DNA from: Actinomycetota bacterium
Lineage (GTDB): Bacteria > Actinomycetota > Acidimicrobiia > Acidimicrobiales > JAJPHE01
NCBI GenBank assembly: GCA_021325435.1
Contig: JAJPHE010000072.1
Coordinates: 1,666-65,665 of the forward strand
Length of the DNA stretch: 64,000 bases
Reading direction: 5' to 3'
Position numbers and translations under genes: made by a program. The notes below the pieces were generated by a model. That model was not told the DNA's origin. It worked only from the letters and a program-made list of their open reading frames with translations, and made no database searches. Below, piece after piece: positions 1 to 5,671 of the stretch. The first letter of the stretch is position 1; the number at the start of each line of letters is the position of its first letter.

Positions 1-1221
1 GGTTTCTGTGGGTAGACGGATGGTGAGCCCGCCCAGGCAGAGGTAGACCATCGCGGCGAGGGAGTCGGTGTTGCGGAAGCCGTAGCCGCGGCGCTGAATG
101 AGCCGGATCCCGGCGTTGACTCCCTCCAGCAGGGCGTTCGACAGCCCCAGCTCGACGGCGGCGACGATGCCGTCGAAGTTGCGTCGGATGGTCCTGGCCA
201 GCTGCACCATGGCGGCGATGCGGCTGTGTGATGCCGAGCTCAGCCAGGCCCGCAGGTAGGGCCGAGAGAACTCGGGCGGCACCCGCCGATACAGATCCCG
301 CAGGCCCTCCTTGAGCTCCCAGGCGCGCCACAACCGGTTGGACTGCTGGCGCAGCCGGGCCAGCAACGCCAGCTGACCCTCGTTGAGGCGCTCGGCTCCG
401 GCCCGCAGCGCGAAGCGGGTCCGGCGCCAGTCGGCGTCGCCGACCCCCGAGCGCGACAGCTCCCGGCCGTGCGCCTTGTAGACCGAGTCGAGAGCCCGGT
501 TGGCCAGTTGGATCGCGTGGAAGGGGTCGAAGCAGATCACCGCCCGGGGGGCCTTGCGGCGGGTGGCGTCGCGATACACGGTGCCGAAGTCCATCGACAC
601 CGCCTTGAGTTTGTCGGCGCGTTCGGGCCCCAACGCGTCGAAGAAAGCCTCCAGGGCGGCGCCTCTTTTGCCCTTGGCCACCCAGACGACACCCTTGCCG
701 TCGTGATCGGCCACCACGGTCAGGTATTGGTGTCCGCGCCGATAGGAGATCTCGTCGACGCCGATCCGGTACAGGCCGTCGAGGCGGGACGAGTCGATGT
801 GTTCAGCCACCACCCGCCCCGCGATGTCGTGGACCGACTGCCACGAGCAGCGCATGAGGCGAGACACGGTGGTGAGGTCGGTTCGCTGGGCCAACCAGGC
901 CGACATGTCCTCGAAGTCCCGGGTGAACCGGGCGCCCGCACGGGCCCAGGGCACGACCTGGGTGCGCACCCGGCCACAGGCCCGACAGTCCACCCGGGCG
1001 ATGTCGGACTCGAGGAAGACCTTGGCCGCGGCCATGTCGAGATGGCGCCAGCGACGGGTCGAGGTGTCGTAGCGGGCCCGGGTGGTGGCCCCGCAGGGAC
1101 AGGTGAGCCGGCGGGCTCGGGACCGGATGCCCACCACGATCCCGCTGCGCTCGAAGCTCACCGATACGACGGTGGCCCCGGGCAGGGAGAGGATCCGGTT
1201 GAATGCCGTGGTGACGCGCAC
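1..1221 (-). CDS. ISL3-family transposase, partial (C-terminus runs off the left edge of the window)
   Basis: My own minus-strand translation from GTG at 1221 is open in frame to base 1, so it is absent from the ORF track for lack of a stop. Sequence: VRVTTAFNRILSLPGATVVSV...LTCPCGATTRARYDTSTRRWRHLD (zf-ISL3-like) ...YRIGVDEISYRRGHQYLTVVADHD...VICFDPFH...GVNAGIRLIQRRGYGFRN (DDE_Tnp_ISL3-like). GAGGAGG lies 9 nt upstream of the GTG. Confidence 0.85.
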   Translation of the reverse strand, partial: MRVTTAFNRILSLPGATVVSVSFERSGIVVGIRSRARRLTCPCGATTRARYDTSTRRWRHLDMAAAKVFLESDIARVDCRACGRVRTQVVPWARAGARFTRDFEDMSAWLAQRTDLTTVSRLMRCSWQSVHDIAGRVVAEHIDSSRLDGLYRIGVDEISYRRGHQYLTVVADHDGKGVVWVAKGKRGAALEAFFDALGPERADKLKAVSMDFGTVYRDATRRKAPRAVICFDPFHAIQLANRALDSVYKAHGRELSRSGVGDADWRRTRFALRAGAERLNEGQLALLARLRQQSNRLWRAWELKEGLRDLYRRVPPEFSRPYLRAWLSSASHSRIAAMVQLARTIRRNFDGIVAAVELGLSNALLEGVNAGIRLIQRRGYGFRNTDSLAAMVYLCLGGLTIRLPTET

Positions 1222-1411: not shown

Positions 1412-2899
1412 ATGGGGCAGCTGAGGTGGCGCCTGGCGGACGAGGAGGGCAGCCAGCCGGCGCTGTTCGATCCCGACGACCTGCTCGAGCGCGAGGTCGG
1501 GCGTGGCGAGTTCCGAGGCCTCGAGTTCCTCCACGTGAACGCCCGCCGGATCATCAACGAGGTGCCGGCGGCCTCGCGGATGCCTTTCCGGTACACGATC
1601 AACGCCTACCGAGGATGCAGCCATGCCTGCGCCTACTGCCTGGCTGGGAACACCAGGGTGCTGCTGGCCGATGGCCGGACCCGGCCGCTAGCCGACCTCC
1701 GGCCCGGGGAACTCGTCTGCGGGACGCAACGGGCGGCCAGCTACCGGCGCTACGTGGCCACCCCGGTCCTCGACCACTGGTCCACCGTCAAGGCGGCCCA
1801 TCGAATCACCCTCGAGGACGGGACCACCCTCGTGGCCAGCGGAGACCACCGGTTCCTTACCGACCGAGGGTGGAAGCACGTCACCCGCTCCGAGCCGGGC
1901 GCCCTACCGCGGCCCTTCCTCACCACCAACGACAAGCTGATGAGGGTTGGCGCCCTCCCTGCTCCCCCTGAACACGACGACTACAGGAGGGGCTACCTCT
2001 GCGGCCTGGGGCTGAAGTCCGAGGTCGGCCGACAGGTGCGCTCGATCGAGGCCCTCGGCATTGAGCTGCCGATGTACGACATCACCACCGGCACCGGCGA
2101 CTTCATCGCCAACGGCGTCGTGTCGCACAACTGCTTCGCCCGCCCCACCCATGAGTACCTGGGCCTGAATATCGGCGAGGACTTCGAGCGCAAGATCGTG
2201 GTCAAGATCAACGCGGTCGAGCGGGTGCGGGCCGAGCTGTCCCCGGCCCGGTGGGGCGGCGACCACATCGCCATGGGAACCAACACCGACCCGTACCAGC
2301 GGTGCGAGGGCAAGTACCACCTCACCCGCGGGATCGTGCAGGCCCTTGCCGAGCGGGCCAACCCTTTCTCCATCCTCACCAAGTCAACCCTCATCCTGCG
2401 CGACGTGGACCTCCTGGCCGAGGCGGCCCGGCGCACGGACGTGAGGGTGAACTTCTCCATCGGCACCCTCGACGAGGAGGTGTGGCGCCTGACCGAGCCG
2501 GGCACGCCGCATCCCCGACAGCGGGTGGCGGCGGTGGCCCGGCTGAACCGGGCCGGGGTGCGCTGCGGCGTGCTAGTCGCTCCCGTCATCCCCGGGCTGT
2601 CCGACCGTCCCAGCCAGATCCGGCGGGTGGTGGCGGCCTGTGCCGACGCCGGCGCCGTCTCCATCTCGCCAATCGCCCTTCACCTGCGTCCCGGCGTCCG
2701 CCAGCACTGGATGGAGTGGCTGGAGCGAACCCGCCCTGACCTGGTTTCCACCTACGAGCAGCTCTACCAGCGGGGCAGCTACCTACCGGCTACGTCCCAG
2801 CGGGCCCTGGCTGGTACGGCGGATCGGGCGCGGAAGGTGGCCCCCAGGCATGGCCCTGGCAACGAAAGGGAAAGTCCGGGGGGAACAACAAGGAGGTGA
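1412..2899 (+). CDS. Radical SAM protein, SplB/Rv2578c-like (DNA-repair-photolyase-like family); precursor containing a mini-intein
   Basis: [19 protein letters not shown]...[13 protein letters not shown]...[21 protein letters not shown]...[12 protein letters not shown]. CX3CX2C is at residues 69/73/76. Removing residues 76-240 restores a contiguous [20 protein letters not shown] and leaves a 330-aa protein. Confidence 0.9.
   Translation: [495 protein letters not shown]
1637..2131 (+). other. Mini-intein (165 aa, residues 76-240 of the radical SAM precursor), no intact homing endonuclease
   Basis: Block A is [21 protein letters not shown] (Cys1). Block B is [15 protein letters not shown]. 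Blocks F/G are [23 protein letters not shown] followed by the +1 Cys (CFARP). The short linker [11 protein letters not shown] may be a LAGLIDADG remnant. Confidence 0.8.
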
Positions 2900-3492
2900 C
2901 GGCAGTGGACGCAACCGCCACTACACCCGTCGTCCGTCACGAACGCCGTGTAGCGGCGCGCCGGAGCCGCATCCGCTTCGGTGCGCCTGGGCTCGTGTTG
3001 TGCGGACTCGGACTGCTTCTTCTGGGGGCCTGGGGCGGCATCGTCCCCTTCGTCGGACCGAAGTTCGGATTTGGCCCGGTGGGGGCCCCGGCATGGCAGT
3101 GGACCAACGCCAACGTGGTGCTGAACGTGGTGCCCGGCGTGGCGGCGGTCCTTGCCGGCTTGGCCGTCATGGGCTCGGCCAGCTGGCGGGCGCTGCGGGG
3201 CCTGGCGGCCTTCGGGTCGCTGTTGGCCGTCGGCGCCGGGGCGTGGTTCGTTCTCGGGGAGCTCGTCTACCCCGTCTTCTACGGCACCGCCCCGGTGTGG
3301 GGCGGAACGGCGGGCAACGGGGCCCTCGCTCAGTTCGTGACCCGACTCGGGTACGGCATGGGGGTAGGTCTCGCCCTGTGTCTGCTCGGTGGGATGGCCC
3401 TGGCGCTCATCGCCGCCCGCCGGGCGGAGGCTCTGATTACCCGCGAGTCCATGGTGGCCGAGGACGTGGCTGCGCCTCCGGCGACTGTCTGA
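2896..3492 (+). CDS. Hypothetical integral membrane protein (about 4 TM helices), coupled to the radical SAM gene
   Basis: GTG 2896 overlaps the upstream TGA (GTGA). An alternative GTG at 2905 lies 7-8 nt after AAGGAGG. The sequence has Gly/Ala/Leu-rich hydrophobic segments (LVLCGLGLLLLGAWGGIV, VVPGVAAVLAGLAVMG, LAAFGSLLAVGAGAWFVLG, GVGLALCLLGGMALALIAA). Confidence 0.6.
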   Translation: MTAVDATATTPVVRHERRVAARRSRIRFGAPGLVLCGLGLLLLGAWGGIVPFVGPKFGFGPVGAPAWQWTNANVVLNVVPGVAAVLAGLAVMGSASWRALRGLAAFGSLLAVGAGAWFVLGELVYPVFYGTAPVWGGTAGNGALAQFVTRLGYGMGVGLALCLLGGMALALIAARRAEALITRESMVAEDVAAPPATV

Positions 3493-3520: not shown

Positions 3521-5671
3521 TCAACGGGCGGCGGCCGCCAGCGGGTGTCGCGGCACCTGCACCAGTTCGATGTCGGGGGGCAGCCCCTCGACCGTCACCC
3601 TGTTGGCCGTCACCGACACCGAGATGCGGGTGCCGGCCAACGGGATGTTGTCCATCGTCAGGTCCCCGAGCTCGGCCGGCAGGTCCGGCGCCAGCCACAA
3701 CTTCCCCCATGGAACCCATGGCTCCATTCGCAGCAGGGTGCGCAGCAGGCTGAACGGAGTGGCCGCCGCCCACGCCTGTGGGGAGCACGAGGTGGGGTAG
3801 CCGACCGGGACGGGGAACTCGTGCCGGTCGAATCCGCAGAACAACTCCGGTAGCCGGCCGTCGAAGGCGGTGGCCGCCTCGAGCAGACCGACGGCCACGG
3901 CCTGCGCCTCCTCGACGAAGCCGTAACGCATGAGCCCGGCGGCGATGATGGCGTTGTCGTGCGGCCACACCGACCCGTTGTGGTAGCTCATCGGGTTGTA
4001 CGCGCCCATGGTCGTCGCCAGGGTCCGGATCCCCCAGCCGGTGAACATCTCGGGGGAGAGAAGGTGCTCGGCCACCCGCGGTGCCTTGTCCGGGTCGATG
4101 ATGCCGGTCCACAGGCAGTGGCCCATGTTGGAGGCCAAGGAGTCGATCGGCGCCTTGTCGCCGTCGAGGCCCACGGCAAACCACCCCTTGTCCTCCAACC
4201 AGAACTGCTCGTTGAAGGCGGCCTTCAGCTTGGCGGCGAGGGTCTCGAATCTGGCTGCGGTCGCGTCGTCACCGTCCTCCCGGGCGAAGTGGGCGCGGGC
4301 CATGTAGGCGGCGTAGGTGTAGCCCTGGACCTCGCTGAGGGCGATCGGGGGTTCGGCCAGGCGGCCACTGGCGAAGTTGATCCCGTCCCAGGAGTCCTTC
4401 CATCCCTGGTTGACCAAGCCCCGATCGGTGGCCCGCTGATACTCGACGAAGCCGTCACCGTCGCGGTCGCCGTGGTCGATGATCCACTCCAGCGCCCGGT
4501 CGGCGTGGGGGAGTAGCTCGTCGACGACCTCTCGGGCCAGGCCCCACCGCCGCAACTCTCCCAGCAGCATCACGAACAGCGGGGTGGCGTCGGCGGTGCC
4601 GTAGTAGAGGTCTCCGCCCGCTCCGGGGCCCACGGGGGTCGATCCCGTTCCCCAGCGGGTCTCGTGAAGGATCCGGCCCGGCTCCTCCTCGGACAGTGGG
4701 TCGACCCGGCTCCCCTGGTAGCGGGCGAGGGTCTGCAGGGTGCCCACGGCGAGGCTCGGGTCGACCGGCAGGGTCATCCACGAGGTGATGAGCGAGTCGC
4801 GCCCGAACAGGGTCATGAACCAGGGGGCGCCGGCGGCGACGACGGCCCGGTCGGGGTACTCCGGGTCGAAGATGCGCAGGGCGCCCAGGTCTTCCTCGCT
4901 GCGCTTCAAGGCGGCCGACAGGCCTTCGTGGGTGGTCTCGACCATCGGGGTCGCCCGCCTCCACTGCTGCAGCCGGCGGGCCGGGGTGGAGCTCTCGATC
5001 GGCTGCCCGCACCGGTGGCGGGGATCCAGGGGACGGCCGTCCATCTCGGCGACGTACTGGATGCAGCTAGCCCACTCCCCGCGGGCGGGCACCACCACCT
5101 GCAGGCTGAGAACGCCGCCAGCCGCCACCGCGCCCTCGTCGACCGACACCCGCAGGCCCCGGCTGGTGTCCATCCACTGGTAGCCGAAGACGACGGCGCC
5201 CGCCTCCTGCCCGACGGTGTGTGTCCCGCGGCTCACCACTCTTCCCTCCTTGACTTCGAACACGTGGGAGAAGTCAGCGTCGAGGGTGATGGTGATCGAG
5301 CAGGCGGCCGGCTCCAGGGCGAGGTTGCGCAGCACCAGGTCCTCGCGCATGCCGTCGCCCACGAACCGGCGGCGGACGACGAGGAGGGTGCTGTCGGCCC
5401 GGCCGGCGACCGGTCGGGCCCGCGAGATGAAGGTGGCGGAGAAGGGATCTCCGAGCATGACGGTGAGGGGCTGTTGAGGCTCGCCGTTGATCCGCAGCTG
5501 GAGGCAGGACAGGAAGCGGGTGTCGCGACAGAACAGGCCCTGCGCACTGCCGGGATCGATGTCGCCGGTGGGGGCCGAGATGCAGAACGAGGATCCCTCG
5601 ACCAGGGTGACATTGCTGCCGGTCAGCCCGCTTACCGGGGGGGACCCGGCGAAGTTCCACGCGTCGGCCAT
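3521..5671 (-). CDS. Amylo-alpha-1,6-glucosidase / glycogen-debranching-enzyme family protein (bacterial GDE_N + GDE_C)
   Basis: 716 aa. Motifs: GAPWFMTLFGRDSLITSWM, YYGTADATPLFV, GLVNQGWKDSWDG, MGHCLWTGI, SYHNGSVWPHDN. Confidence 0.85.
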   Translation of the reverse strand: MADAWNFAGSPPVSGLTGSNVTLVEGSSFCISAPTGDIDPGSAQGLFCRDTRFLSCLQLRINGEPQQPLTVMLGDPFSATFISRARPVAGRADSTLLVVRRRFVGDGMREDLVLRNLALEPAACSITITLDADFSHVFEVKEGRVVSRGTHTVGQEAGAVVFGYQWMDTSRGLRVSVDEGAVAAGGVLSLQVVVPARGEWASCIQYVAEMDGRPLDPRHRCGQPIESSTPARRLQQWRRATPMVETTHEGLSAALKRSEEDLGALRIFDPEYPDRAVVAAGAPWFMTLFGRDSLITSWMTLPVDPSLAVGTLQTLARYQGSRVDPLSEEEPGRILHETRWGTGSTPVGPGAGGDLYYGTADATPLFVMLLGELRRWGLAREVVDELLPHADRALEWIIDHGDRDGDGFVEYQRATDRGLVNQGWKDSWDGINFASGRLAEPPIALSEVQGYTYAAYMARAHFAREDGDDATAARFETLAAKLKAAFNEQFWLEDKGWFAVGLDGDKAPIDSLASNMGHCLWTGIIDPDKAPRVAEHLLSPEMFTGWGIRTLATTMGAYNPMSYHNGSVWPHDNAIIAAGLMRYGFVEEAQAVAVGLLEAATAFDGRLPELFCGFDRHEFPVPVGYPTSCSPQAWAAATPFSLLRTLLRMEPWVPWGKLWLAPDLPAELGDLTMDNIPLAGTRISVSVTANRVTVEGLPPDIELVQVPRHPLAAAAR

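What the first reader, a model, noticed from the sequence alone, without database searches (positions are those of the whole stretch)
1637..2131. Mini-intein inserted exactly at the third cysteine of the radical-SAM CX3CX2C motif
The sequence reads ...YRGC69SHAC73AY | C76[12 protein letters not shown]...GDHRFL...[19 protein letters not shown]240 | C241FARPTHEYL.... Residues 76-240 carry intein blocks A, B, F and G with Cys1, a penultimate His-Asn, and a +1 Cys. Excision restores the family-typical [18 protein letters not shown] and a 330-aa protein. The +1 nucleophile is also the third [4Fe-4S] ligand. In the unspliced precursor the intein's Cys1 sits where that ligand should be, so an apparent CX3CX2C exists both before and after splicing. 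This geometry invites crosstalk between cluster loading or redox state and splicing (conditional splicing), which is my inference. At 165 aa the element lacks a homing endonuclease; only a possible LAGLIDADG remnant ([11 protein letters not shown]) is left. I do not know of a characterised intein at this site in this family, but I cannot search databases here.
Basis: partly seen in the sequence, partly recalled or inferred. Interest (0 to 1): 0.72.

Follow-up and report, generated by a model that had tools for sequence, protein, structure and literature searches.

The report
Mini-intein in a radical SAM gene
A self-splicing protein element (intein) that has lost its homing endonuclease interrupts a radical SAM enzyme exactly at its third iron-sulfur-binding cysteine, but inteins at this site in this enzyme family are already catalogued and common in Acidimicrobiales, so this is an ordinary new example.

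Summary
The ORF at 1412..2899 (+) encodes a 495-aa precursor, and residues 76-240 (nt 1637-2131) form a 165-aa class-1 mini-intein. It sits between Tyr75 and the third Cys of CX3CX2C in an Rv2578c/COG1533 ("SplB-like") radical SAM protein. Seventy-eight intein-free genomic homologues read CSHACxYC|FARPTH without interruption. A structure model of the intein matches solved inteins. The catalytic residues C1, S68/H71 (SxxH), D148, H164-N165 and Cys+1 are invariant in 31 homologues. YRRGYLCGL is a genuine remnant of the first LAGLIDADG motif: full-size relatives of about 342 aa carry both motifs.

The intein at this site is not new. NCBIfam has a dedicated model, NF038136 ("intein-containing Rv2578c family radical SAM protein"). 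Novikova et al. 2016 list SplB/COG1533 as the sixth most common bacterial intein host. I found no experimental study of it.

The proposed redox or Fe-S gating of splicing is untested. It has a published precedent in the Pyrococcus abyssi MoaA intein, where a Cys-3:Cys1 disulfide blocks splicing.

One extra result: close relatives of this intein occupy the same motif position in other radical SAM-type families (DUF5131, B12-binding radical SAM), and once the second Cys.

The parts
1412..2899 (+). Precursor gene: 495-aa Rv2578c/COG1533-family radical SAM protein interrupted by an intein (stop codon included)
   Evidence: ORF list and sequence. NF038136 646.9 bits, NF038135 404 bits, Pfam Radical_SAM 51.7 bits. 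The identical protein is encoded on NCBI GCA_035653035.1 contig DASRCP010000076.1 and on ENA and JGI metagenome contigs.
1412..1636 (+). N-extein, aa 1-75. It carries the first two cluster cysteines, C69 (nt 1616-1618) and C73 (nt 1628-1630). C73 is position -3 relative to the intein.
   Evidence: Alignments A1 and A2: C69, S70, H71, C73 and Y75 are invariant. Coordinates.
1637..2131 (+). 165-aa class-1 mini-intein (aa 76-240)
   Evidence: Clean insertion relative to intein-free homologues. TIGR01445 and TIGR01443 score above their cutoffs. AlphaFold2 pLDDT 86.8. Foldseek PDB top hits: BIL2 6y75 at 1e-9, Npu DnaB intein 4o1r at 7e-9, gp41-1, Ssp DnaB, Mtu RecA. phmmer against PDB: 23 of the 24 hits with E <= 1 are inteins or intein-containing chains, best 4o1r at 4.5e-4.
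1637..1675 (+). Block A: Cys1 (C76, nt 1637-1639) followed by [12 protein letters not shown]. Cys1 occupies the motif position of the third cluster cysteine in the precursor.
   Evidence: C1, T6 and G13 are invariant in 31 intein-containing homologues. Coordinates.
1838..1849 (+). Block B S143-G-D-H146 (a TxxH-type motif with Ser in place of Thr)
   Evidence: S68 and H71 (intein numbering) are invariant in alignment A3. Coordinates.
1982..2035 (+). Homing-endonuclease scar: remnant of LAGLIDADG motif 1 (YRRGYLCGL, aa 191-199) joined directly to GLKSEVGRQ. About 180 aa are deleted relative to full-size relatives.
   Evidence: Full-size relatives read YQRGYLCGLIRGDGH...KGFLAGIFDAEGS...ALKSDAPLRVVSVE in the aligned positions. 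LAGLIDADG motif 2 is absent. This region has the lowest pLDDT (intein residues 115-127 below 50) and the lowest conservation (42% identity).
2075..2131 (+). Blocks F and G: [19 protein letters not shown], with the block F Asp (D223, nt 2078-2080) and the terminal His239-Asn240 (nt 2126-2131)
   Evidence: D148, T150, T151, G154, F156, S163, H164 and N165 (intein numbering) are invariant. The C-lobe is 80% identical across homologues.
2132..2896 (+). C-extein, aa 241-495. It begins with Cys+1 (C241, nt 2132-2134), which is both the splicing nucleophile and the third cysteine of CX3CX2C after ligation.
   Evidence: C241-F-A-R-P-T-H is invariant. The spliced extein scores 409.2 bits on NF038135 in one contiguous stretch, residues 11-314 against profile positions 12-313.

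Best explanation
The gene encodes a precursor of an Rv2578c/COG1533-family radical SAM enzyme, interrupted by a class-1 intein that has lost its LAGLIDADG homing endonuclease by an in-frame deletion.

Inferred mechanism, from the canonical class-1 pathway:
1. Cys76 (Cys1) attacks the Tyr75 carbonyl (N-S acyl shift).
2. Cys241 (Cys+1) takes over the N-extein by trans-thioesterification.
3. Asn240 cyclises and releases the 165-aa intein.
4. An S-N shift leaves a normal peptide bond.

The product is a 330-aa enzyme whose C69-x3-C73-x2-C76 (mature numbering) binds the [4Fe-4S] cluster. The enzyme cannot be assembled in its native form until splicing has happened.

The element is an immobile, vertically inherited remnant of a widespread mobile intein that targets the DNA encoding this motif. 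It probably persists because only a precise deletion would restore the essential motif.

Shown here: the insertion, its position, its fold, its conserved catalytic residues, its relatives and the endonuclease loss. Inferred: that it actually splices, and that splicing is constitutive.
For: - Family models: NF038136 at 3e-194, and the intein N- and C-terminal TIGRFAMs above their cutoffs.
- Junction: the spliced sequence matches NF038135 contiguously, and 78 intein-free loci read [14 protein letters not shown].
- Relatives: all 30 intein-containing homologues examined have the intein at the identical site. Sizes fall into about 342 aa (both LAGLIDADG motifs), 225-286 aa (partial) and 154-196 aa (mini), with different deletion end points.
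- Catalytic residues: C1, S68/H71 (SxxH), D148, H164-N165 and Cys+1 are invariant.
- Conservation: the splicing lobes are 65% and 80% identical to homologues, comparable with the exteins (81% and 73%), while the endonuclease scar is only 42%.
- Fold: HINT fold with pLDDT 86.8, and PDB matches are inteins.
- Composition: GC3 is 0.89 in the intein against 0.91 and 0.88 in the exteins, so the intein is a long-term resident.
- Distribution: intein presence and absence are interleaved on an extein tree, with at least 19 changes among 109 sequences. This is typical of a homing, decay and loss cycle.
- Target site: the empty site is strongly conserved at the DNA level, TGCagcCAcGCcTGcgcnTAc|TGcTTcGCcCGnCCnACnCAC.
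- Prior cataloguing: PMC4760082 Table 1 lists SplB/COG1533 with 48 inteins in Actinobacteria.
Against: - No experiment shows splicing of this or any Rv2578c-family intein; none turned up in the literature searches.
- Pfam Intein_splicing is below its gathering score.
- The protein scores just under both curated NCBIfam cutoffs: 646.9 against 700 for NF038136, because about 95 profile positions of the endonuclease are missing, and 404-409 against 430 for NF038135.
- Block B has Ser where most inteins have Thr.
- The AlphaFold2 model of the whole precursor is poor (pLDDT 68.7, N-extein below 50). It says nothing about the geometry around the cysteines.
Confidence: 0.87

Rival explanations
1. Conditional splicing. 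The four clustered thiols C69, C73 (position -3), C76 (Cys1) and C241 (Cys+1) make splicing depend on redox state or metal/Fe-S loading. Two routes are possible: a C73-C76 CxxC disulfide, or coordination of Cys1 by iron or zinc, blocks the first acyl shift. The oxygen-labile enzyme would then be matured only under reducing, cluster-permissive conditions. This is a refinement of the best explanation, not an alternative to it.
For: - The precursor keeps an apparent CX3CX2C with Cys1 as the third Cys, and Cys-3, Cys1 and Cys+1 are invariant in all 31 homologues.
- Published precedent in another radical SAM host: the P. abyssi MoaA intein forms a native Cys-3:Cys1 disulfide that blocks splicing until it is reduced (Callahan 2011, as summarised in PMC3922620 and PMC10663303).
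- The DnaBi1 intein (shown experimentally) and the SufB intein (cited there) of mycobacteria are inhibited by oxidants through their catalytic cysteines (PMC6195587).
- The same intein lineage sits at this motif in several radical SAM families.
Against: - Nothing was tested here, and sequence alone cannot show gating.
- A +1 Cys at a conserved catalytic motif is what any homing intein needs, so the geometry is explained by selfish site choice without any regulatory role.
- Loss of the intein in many close relatives shows the host does not need it.
- That the MoaA insertion is at the equivalent Cys is my recollection and inference. I could not verify it.
Confidence: 0.25
2. Dead HINT insertion. 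The element no longer splices. Either the gene is a decaying pseudogene, or the protein works as a permanent fusion in which Cys76 serves as the third cluster ligand.
For: - The endonuclease is deleted and the scar region is poorly conserved and low in confidence.
- Scores fall below both curated NCBIfam cutoffs.
- An ISL3 transposase lies immediately upstream, so the neighbourhood is not pristine.
- The C-terminal tail lacks the QLxLG ending of homologues.
Against: - The ORF is intact, and the identical protein occurs in four assemblies from three independent sources.
- Every catalytic residue is retained and invariant across homologues.
- The splicing lobes are as conserved as the exteins, which is not expected for a non-functional insertion.
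- Many natural mini-inteins splice efficiently (established knowledge; structures of such mini-inteins are the top fold matches).
Confidence: 0.08
3. Chance resemblance or mis-called ORF: the 165 aa are a lineage-specific insertion unrelated to inteins.
For: Only the sub-threshold Pfam score.
Against: - NF038136 at E 3e-194, with TIGR01445 and TIGR01443 above their cutoffs.
- HINT fold with intein matches at 1e-9.
- 163 cluster representatives at E <= 1e-30 in a search of 1.84 billion proteins.
- Full-size relatives carry LAGLIDADG domains.
Confidence: 0.01

Closest known systems
Intein-containing Rv2578c family radical SAM proteins (NCBIfam NF038136), listed as 'SplB' COG1533 inteins of Actinobacteria in Novikova et al. 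2016 (PMC4760082)
   Same: Same host family and same insertion point (Tyr|Cys of CX3CX2C). The splicing domain is homologous, at 59-69% identity to the 30 relatives examined. Same Cys1, His-Asn and Cys+1 chemistry.
   Different: The window's copy lacks the LAGLIDADG endonuclease: 165 aa against about 342 aa, with profile positions ~196-290 unmatched. It therefore scores 646.9, under the curated cutoff of 700. Other independently shortened minis of 154-196 aa exist, so even this state is not unique.
Pyrococcus abyssi MoaA intein (redox trap; Callahan et al. 2011 NSMB, as described in PMC3922620 and PMC10663303)
   Same: The host is a radical SAM, oxygen-labile [4Fe-4S] enzyme. An N-extein Cys lies at -3 and the catalytic Cys1 forms a CxxC with it. 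The published idea is that the disulfide holds back splicing until conditions are reducing.
   Different: It is archaeal, in a different radical SAM family, and has experimental evidence. Here nothing is tested. Whether the MoaA insertion is at the same cluster cysteine is my inference from the -3/+1 spacing, not verified. Homology between the two inteins was not tested.
Mycobacterium tuberculosis SufB intein and M. smegmatis DnaBi1 intein (oxidative-stress-sensitive splicing; PMC8891592, PMC6195587)
   Same: Actinobacterial inteins whose catalytic cysteines make splicing sensitive to oxidants. SufB links inteins to Fe-S metabolism.
   Different: Different hosts, sites and intein classes (DnaBi1 is class 3). 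The hosts are not radical SAM enzymes, and the intein does not replace a cluster ligand.
'Classic' P-loop intein insertions shared by unrelated ATPases (Novikova 2016; Kelley 2016, PMC5050341)
   Same: Related inteins recur at one short, highly conserved catalytic motif in different protein families. Here the motif is CX3CX2C, in the Rv2578c, DUF5131 and B12-binding radical SAM families.
   Different: The motif and superfamily differ. I found no paper in the searched library describing the radical SAM cluster motif as such a recurrent site.
Natural and engineered mini-inteins (Npu DnaB 4o1r, Ssp DnaB 1mi8, Mtu RecA splicing domain 2in0, gp41-1 6qaz)
   Same: HINT fold without an endonuclease. 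TM-score normalised to the target is 0.77-0.86.
   Different: Only 19-25% sequence identity, and different hosts and sites.

Membership tests
Class-1 intein (HINT splicing domain) | Nucleophile (Cys/Ser) at position 1 and block A | tested here: met
   C76 followed by [12 protein letters not shown]. C1 is invariant in 31 homologues. TIGR01445 scores 26.0 bits against a cutoff of 24.5.
Class-1 intein (HINT splicing domain) | Block B TxxH motif | tested here: met
   S143-G-D-H146, with Ser in place of Thr. S68 and H71 are invariant.
Class-1 intein (HINT splicing domain) | Block F Asp, block G penultimate His and terminal Asn, and a +1 Cys/Ser/Thr | tested here: met
   D223, H239, N240 and C241 are all invariant. 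TIGR01443 scores 19.2 bits against a cutoff of 15.6.
Class-1 intein (HINT splicing domain) | HINT fold | tested here: met
   AlphaFold2 pLDDT 86.8, pTM 0.80. Foldseek against PDB gives 58 matches at E <= 0.001; the 50 listed are inteins, bacterial intein-like domains or hedgehog autoprocessing domains.
Class-1 intein (HINT splicing domain) | In-frame insertion at a conserved host site that is absent from close homologues | tested here: met
   78 intein-free loci have a contiguous junction. Alignment A1.
Class-1 intein (HINT splicing domain) | Pfam Intein_splicing (PF14890) at or above its gathering score | tested here: not met
   24.4 bits for the precursor and 29.0 bits for the intein alone, against 35.8. 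Several full-size relatives (P0147, P0207, P0227) are also just below it, so the model is weak for this clade.
Class-1 intein (HINT splicing domain) | Autocatalytic excision with extein ligation | not testable with these tools
   Needs protein expression, or proteomics for the junction peptide.
NF038136 intein-containing Rv2578c family radical SAM protein | Score at or above the curated cutoff of 700 bits | tested here: not met
   646.9 bits. Two stretches match profile positions 76-195 and 291-572, and the endonuclease positions are missing. The shortfall is explained by the deletion. Site and homology are the same.
NF038136 intein-containing Rv2578c family radical SAM protein | Intein at the Tyr|Cys junction of the CX3CX2C motif of an Rv2578c-type protein | tested here: met
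   The boundary is identical in 30 homologues, several of which NCBI names with this family name.
Rv2578c family radical SAM protein (NF038135; COG1533 'SplB') | Score at or above the curated cutoff of 430 bits for the mature protein | tested here: inconclusive
   The spliced extein scores 409.2 bits in one stretch covering profile positions 12-313 of 317. This is just under the cutoff. The next family, PA0069, scores 252.8 bits.
Rv2578c family radical SAM protein (NF038135; COG1533 'SplB') | CX3CX2C cluster motif and radical SAM core | tested here: met
   C69-SHA-C73-AY-C after splicing. Pfam Radical_SAM scores 51.7 bits against a cutoff of 29.5.
LAGLIDADG homing endonuclease domain | Two LAGLIDADG motifs with the intervening alpha-beta core | tested here: not met
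   Only YRRGYLCGL of motif 1 remains. Motif 2 (GFLAGIFDAEG in relatives) is absent. No LAGLIDADG_3 hit in Pfam.
Redox-trap inteins (Pab MoaA type) | N-extein Cys at -3 forming a CxxC with Cys1 | tested here: met
   C73-A-Y-C76. C73 is invariant.
Redox-trap inteins (Pab MoaA type) | Reversible disulfide that blocks splicing under oxidising conditions | not testable with these tools
   Biochemical property. The precedent was taken from reviews only.

The most novel reading that the evidence does not exclude
This intein belongs to a lineage specialised on the DNA and protein of the radical SAM CX3CX2C motif. The lineage has spread across several radical SAM-type families (Rv2578c/COG1533, DUF5131/Gp37-Gp68-like, B12-binding radical SAM). 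In all of them, the Cys-7/Cys-3/Cys1/Cys+1 cluster would act as a redox- or Fe-S-sensitive gate, so that an oxygen-labile enzyme is completed only when a cluster can be loaded. That would be a general post-translational checkpoint for radical SAM maturation. The cross-family distribution is shown. The gating is speculation.
Probability: 0.2. Interest if true: 0.65.

Novelty: new member of a known kind. Interest (0 to 1): 0.3.

Why it matters
By itself, little. It is one more endonuclease-less copy of an intein that NCBI already models and that a 2016 survey already counted.

**Annotation.** Mini-intein copies fall below the curated cutoffs of both the intein-containing model (NF038136) and the intein-free model (NF038135). 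They are therefore likely to be labelled only "radical SAM protein".

**Biology.** The site is attractive for experiments. The splicing nucleophiles are the same thiols that must bind the [4Fe-4S] cluster, and the same intein lineage recurs at this motif in several radical SAM families. A compact 165-aa natural mini-intein flanked by CxxxCxY|C...N|C would be a convenient test object. It could show whether cluster loading, metals or oxidation control splicing, as reported for P. abyssi MoaA.

Tried and rejected
- **Literature.** I found no experimental paper on an Rv2578c/SplB intein. The Campylobacter phage paper that mentions both inteins and radical SAM is unrelated. The supplements of Novikova 2016 are not held. 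Callahan 2011 and Belfort 2017 are not held, so I could not verify where exactly the MoaA intein is inserted.
- **Precursor model.** It was too poor (pLDDT 68.7, N-extein below 50) to say anything about thiol geometry.
- **Horizontal-transfer signal.** There is no GC or GC3 difference between intein and exteins.
- **Phage carriage.** tblastn against 50,697 phage genomes found only distant terminase inteins at 28-34% identity. A scan of IMG/VR viral contigs found nothing. There is no evidence here for a viral vector.
- **Other copies in the window.** An HMM built from this intein clade finds only this one copy among all ORFs of 80 aa or more.
- **C-terminal frameshift.** I looked for a frameshift that would restore the QLxLG tail of homologues. 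None was convincing, and the radical SAM core is complete.
- **Near-identical protein P0001.** It is not on record in the contig index.
- **RNA genes.** The window has no Rfam hit at gathering score and no tRNA.
Full report
**1. The observation**

The ORF at 1412..2899 (+) encodes 495 aa. The sequence reads ...YRGC69SHAC73AY | C76[12 protein letters not shown] ... S143GDH146 ... Y222DITT ... VVSH239N240 | C241FARPTHEYL. Deleting residues 76-240 leaves 330 aa containing [18 protein letters not shown].

**2. Is it an intein?**

NCBIfam gives three relevant hits for the precursor:
- NF038136, "intein-containing Rv2578c family radical SAM protein": 646.9 bits, E 3e-194.
- TIGR01445, intein N-terminal splicing region: 26.0 bits against a cutoff of 24.5.
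- TIGR01443, intein C-terminal splicing region: 19.2 bits against a cutoff of 15.6.

Pfam Intein_splicing is sub-threshold at 24-29 bits against 35.8. Several full-size relatives are also just below it.

The spliced 330-aa sequence matches the intein-free model NF038135 (Rv2578c family) in one uninterrupted stretch, at 409.2 bits.

A genome scan with the spliced sequence returned 80 loci, mostly Acidimicrobiales MAGs, at 60-77% identity. Of these, 78 read CSHACxYC|FARPTH contiguously. Alignment A1 shows a clean 165-aa insertion.

An AlphaFold2 model of the 165 aa has pLDDT 86.8. Only intein residues 115-127 are unconfident. The Foldseek matches listed in the PDB are all HINT domains: BIL2 at 1e-9, Npu DnaB at 7e-9, then gp41-1, Ssp DnaB and Mtu RecA. 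Sequence search of the PDB likewise returns almost only inteins: 23 of the 24 hits with E <= 1.

**3. Relatives and anatomy**

All of the 120 best database homologues listed are 495-740 aa long, the size of intein-containing proteins. NCBI names some of them "intein-containing Rv2578c family radical SAM protein".

In the 30 I examined, the intein is at the identical junction (C1...SHN|CFARP). Sizes fall into three groups:

| Group | Size | LAGLIDADG motifs |
|---|---|---|
| Full | 337-346 aa | both (GYLCG..GDGH and GFLAGIFDAEG) |
| Partial | 225-286 aa | motif 1; motif 2 also in the 286-aa copy |
| Mini | 154-196 aa | none, or a motif 1 remnant; deletion end points differ |

The window's YRRGYLCGL aligns with motif 1 of the full-size inteins.

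C1, S68, H71, D148, H164, N165 and Cys+1 are invariant. The splicing lobes are 65% and 80% identical to homologues, like the exteins at 81% and 73%. The endonuclease scar is only 42% identical. That pattern indicates selection for splicing, not decay.

GC3 is the same in intein and exteins: 0.89 against 0.91 and 0.88. On a neighbour-joining tree of exteins, intein-containing and intein-free alleles are interleaved, with at least 19 state changes in 109 sequences. The tree is poorly resolved, so this count is only indicative. The empty site is highly conserved at the DNA level. Together this is the textbook life cycle of a homing intein: invasion, endonuclease decay, occasional precise loss.

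**4. Mechanism**

The canonical class-1 pathway is inferred, not shown:
1. Cys76 performs the N-S acyl shift at Tyr75.
2. Cys241 performs the trans-thioesterification.
3. Asn240 cyclises and releases the intein.
4. An S-N shift restores a peptide bond.

The third cluster ligand of the mature enzyme is the +1 nucleophile, so the native CX3CX2C exists only after splicing. This holds for all homologues, because Cys-7, Cys-3, Cys1 and Cys+1 are invariant.

Whether that gates splicing cannot be told from sequence, and the whole-precursor model was uninformative. The idea has a published precedent. The P. abyssi MoaA intein, also in a radical SAM enzyme, forms a Cys-3:Cys1 disulfide that blocks splicing until it is reduced (Callahan 2011, as described in PMC3922620 and PMC10663303). 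Mycobacterial SufB and DnaBi1 inteins are also oxidant-sensitive (PMC6195587). That the MoaA site is the equivalent cysteine is my inference from the -3/+1 spacing. The primary paper is not held.

**5. Comparison with what is known**

The intein at this site in this family is catalogued. NCBIfam NF038136 is a dedicated "exception" model. Novikova et al. 2016 (PMC4760082, Table 1) list SplB/COG1533 with 48 inteins, all in Actinobacteria, as the sixth most frequent bacterial intein host. I found no experimental work on it.

The window's copy is a shortened member of this family. Because the endonuclease positions are missing, it scores under the 700-bit cutoff of NF038136 and also just under the 430-bit cutoff of NF038135. 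Such copies are likely to be annotated only generically.

**6. An extra finding: the same lineage in other host families**

A full HMMER search of 1.84 billion cluster representatives, using the intein plus short flanks, gave 1,879 hits at E <= 1e-3 and 163 at E <= 1e-30. Only the best 150 are visible.

Nearly all of those with a readable N-terminal boundary have GCxxxCx[YF] immediately before Cys1. Most are Rv2578c-like, but close relatives (43-57% identity, the same LAGLIDADG domain) sit at the same motif position in other families:
- DUF5131 (Gp37/Gp68-like) proteins, some with a ParB N-terminal domain: P0147, P0170, P0205, P0206, P0258. Flanks are TGCxHxCxY|...|CYARDIA.
- B12-binding radical SAM proteins: P0207 and P0252.
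- More distant radical SAM proteins: P0227, P0233, P0255, P0265.
- P0224, where the intein lies before the second cysteine (GCPYR|C...HN|CNFCSAH).

This resembles the recurrent "classic P-loop" intein insertions in unrelated ATPases (PMC5050341). I found no close relative in sequenced phages or IMG/VR contigs.

**7. Context**

The identical protein is encoded on NCBI GCA_035653035.1 (contig DASRCP010000076.1) and on ENA and JGI metagenome contigs. The neighbours are:
- upstream, an ISL3-family transposase on the minus strand (window ~1..1221);
- downstream, a 195-aa protein with no Pfam hit;
- then a glycogen-debranching-like enzyme (3521..5671, minus strand).

**8. Verdict**

This is a real mini-intein, correctly described, at a catalogued site, and a new member of a known kind. 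The conditional-splicing idea is reasonable and testable, but it is neither shown nor conceptually new. The cross-family distribution at the CX3CX2C motif is the most interesting by-product.

Noticed in passing
proteins P0147, P0170, P0205, P0206, P0258, P0207, P0252, P0227, P0233, P0255, P0265: Close relatives of this intein (43-57% identity, same LAGLIDADG domain) are inserted at the same Tyr/Phe|Cys position of CX3CX2C in other host families. These are DUF5131/Gp37-Gp68-like proteins (some with a ParB N-terminal domain), B12-binding radical SAM proteins and distant COG1533-like radical SAMs. The lineage appears specialised on the cluster motif and not on one host gene.
   Followed up: partly
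protein P0224 (821 aa, B12-binding radical SAM): Here the related intein lies before the second cysteine of the motif (GCPYR|C...ISHN|CNFCSAH), a 3-residue shift of the insertion point relative to all the others.
   Followed up: no
window 1412-2899: The mini-intein form scores below the curated cutoffs of both NF038136 (646.9 against 700) and NF038135 (404-409 against 430). Automatic annotation would therefore probably call it only 'radical SAM protein', as happened for several homologues.
   Followed up: partly
window ~1-1221 (- strand): An ISL3-family transposase (407 aa; HTH_Tnp_ISL3 and DDE_Tnp_ISL3) lies directly upstream, divergently oriented, and is cut by the window start. A Transposase_mut fragment lies further upstream on the source contig (L081/L082).
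   Followed up: no
window ~2780-2896: The C-terminal tail of the radical SAM protein (…[31 protein letters not shown]) lacks the QLxLG[VI] ending conserved in almost all intein-containing homologues. No convincing frameshift was found. The stop overlaps the start region of the next ORF (2896/2905..3492).
   Followed up: partly
window 2905-3492 (+): A 195-aa ORF with no Pfam hit follows immediately, possibly co-transcribed. The translation looks like a multi-pass membrane protein. Conservation of this pairing in other genomes was not checked.
   Followed up: no
window 1718-1720 and 2000-2002: The intein carries two further cysteines, C103 and C197, besides Cys1. C103 is not conserved in the homologues (position GDxVxGT), and C197 belongs to the LAGLIDADG remnant. 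Both could matter for any disulfide chemistry.
   Followed up: no
window 1-64000: The whole 64-kb window has no tRNA gene and no Rfam family at gathering score.
   Followed up: yes
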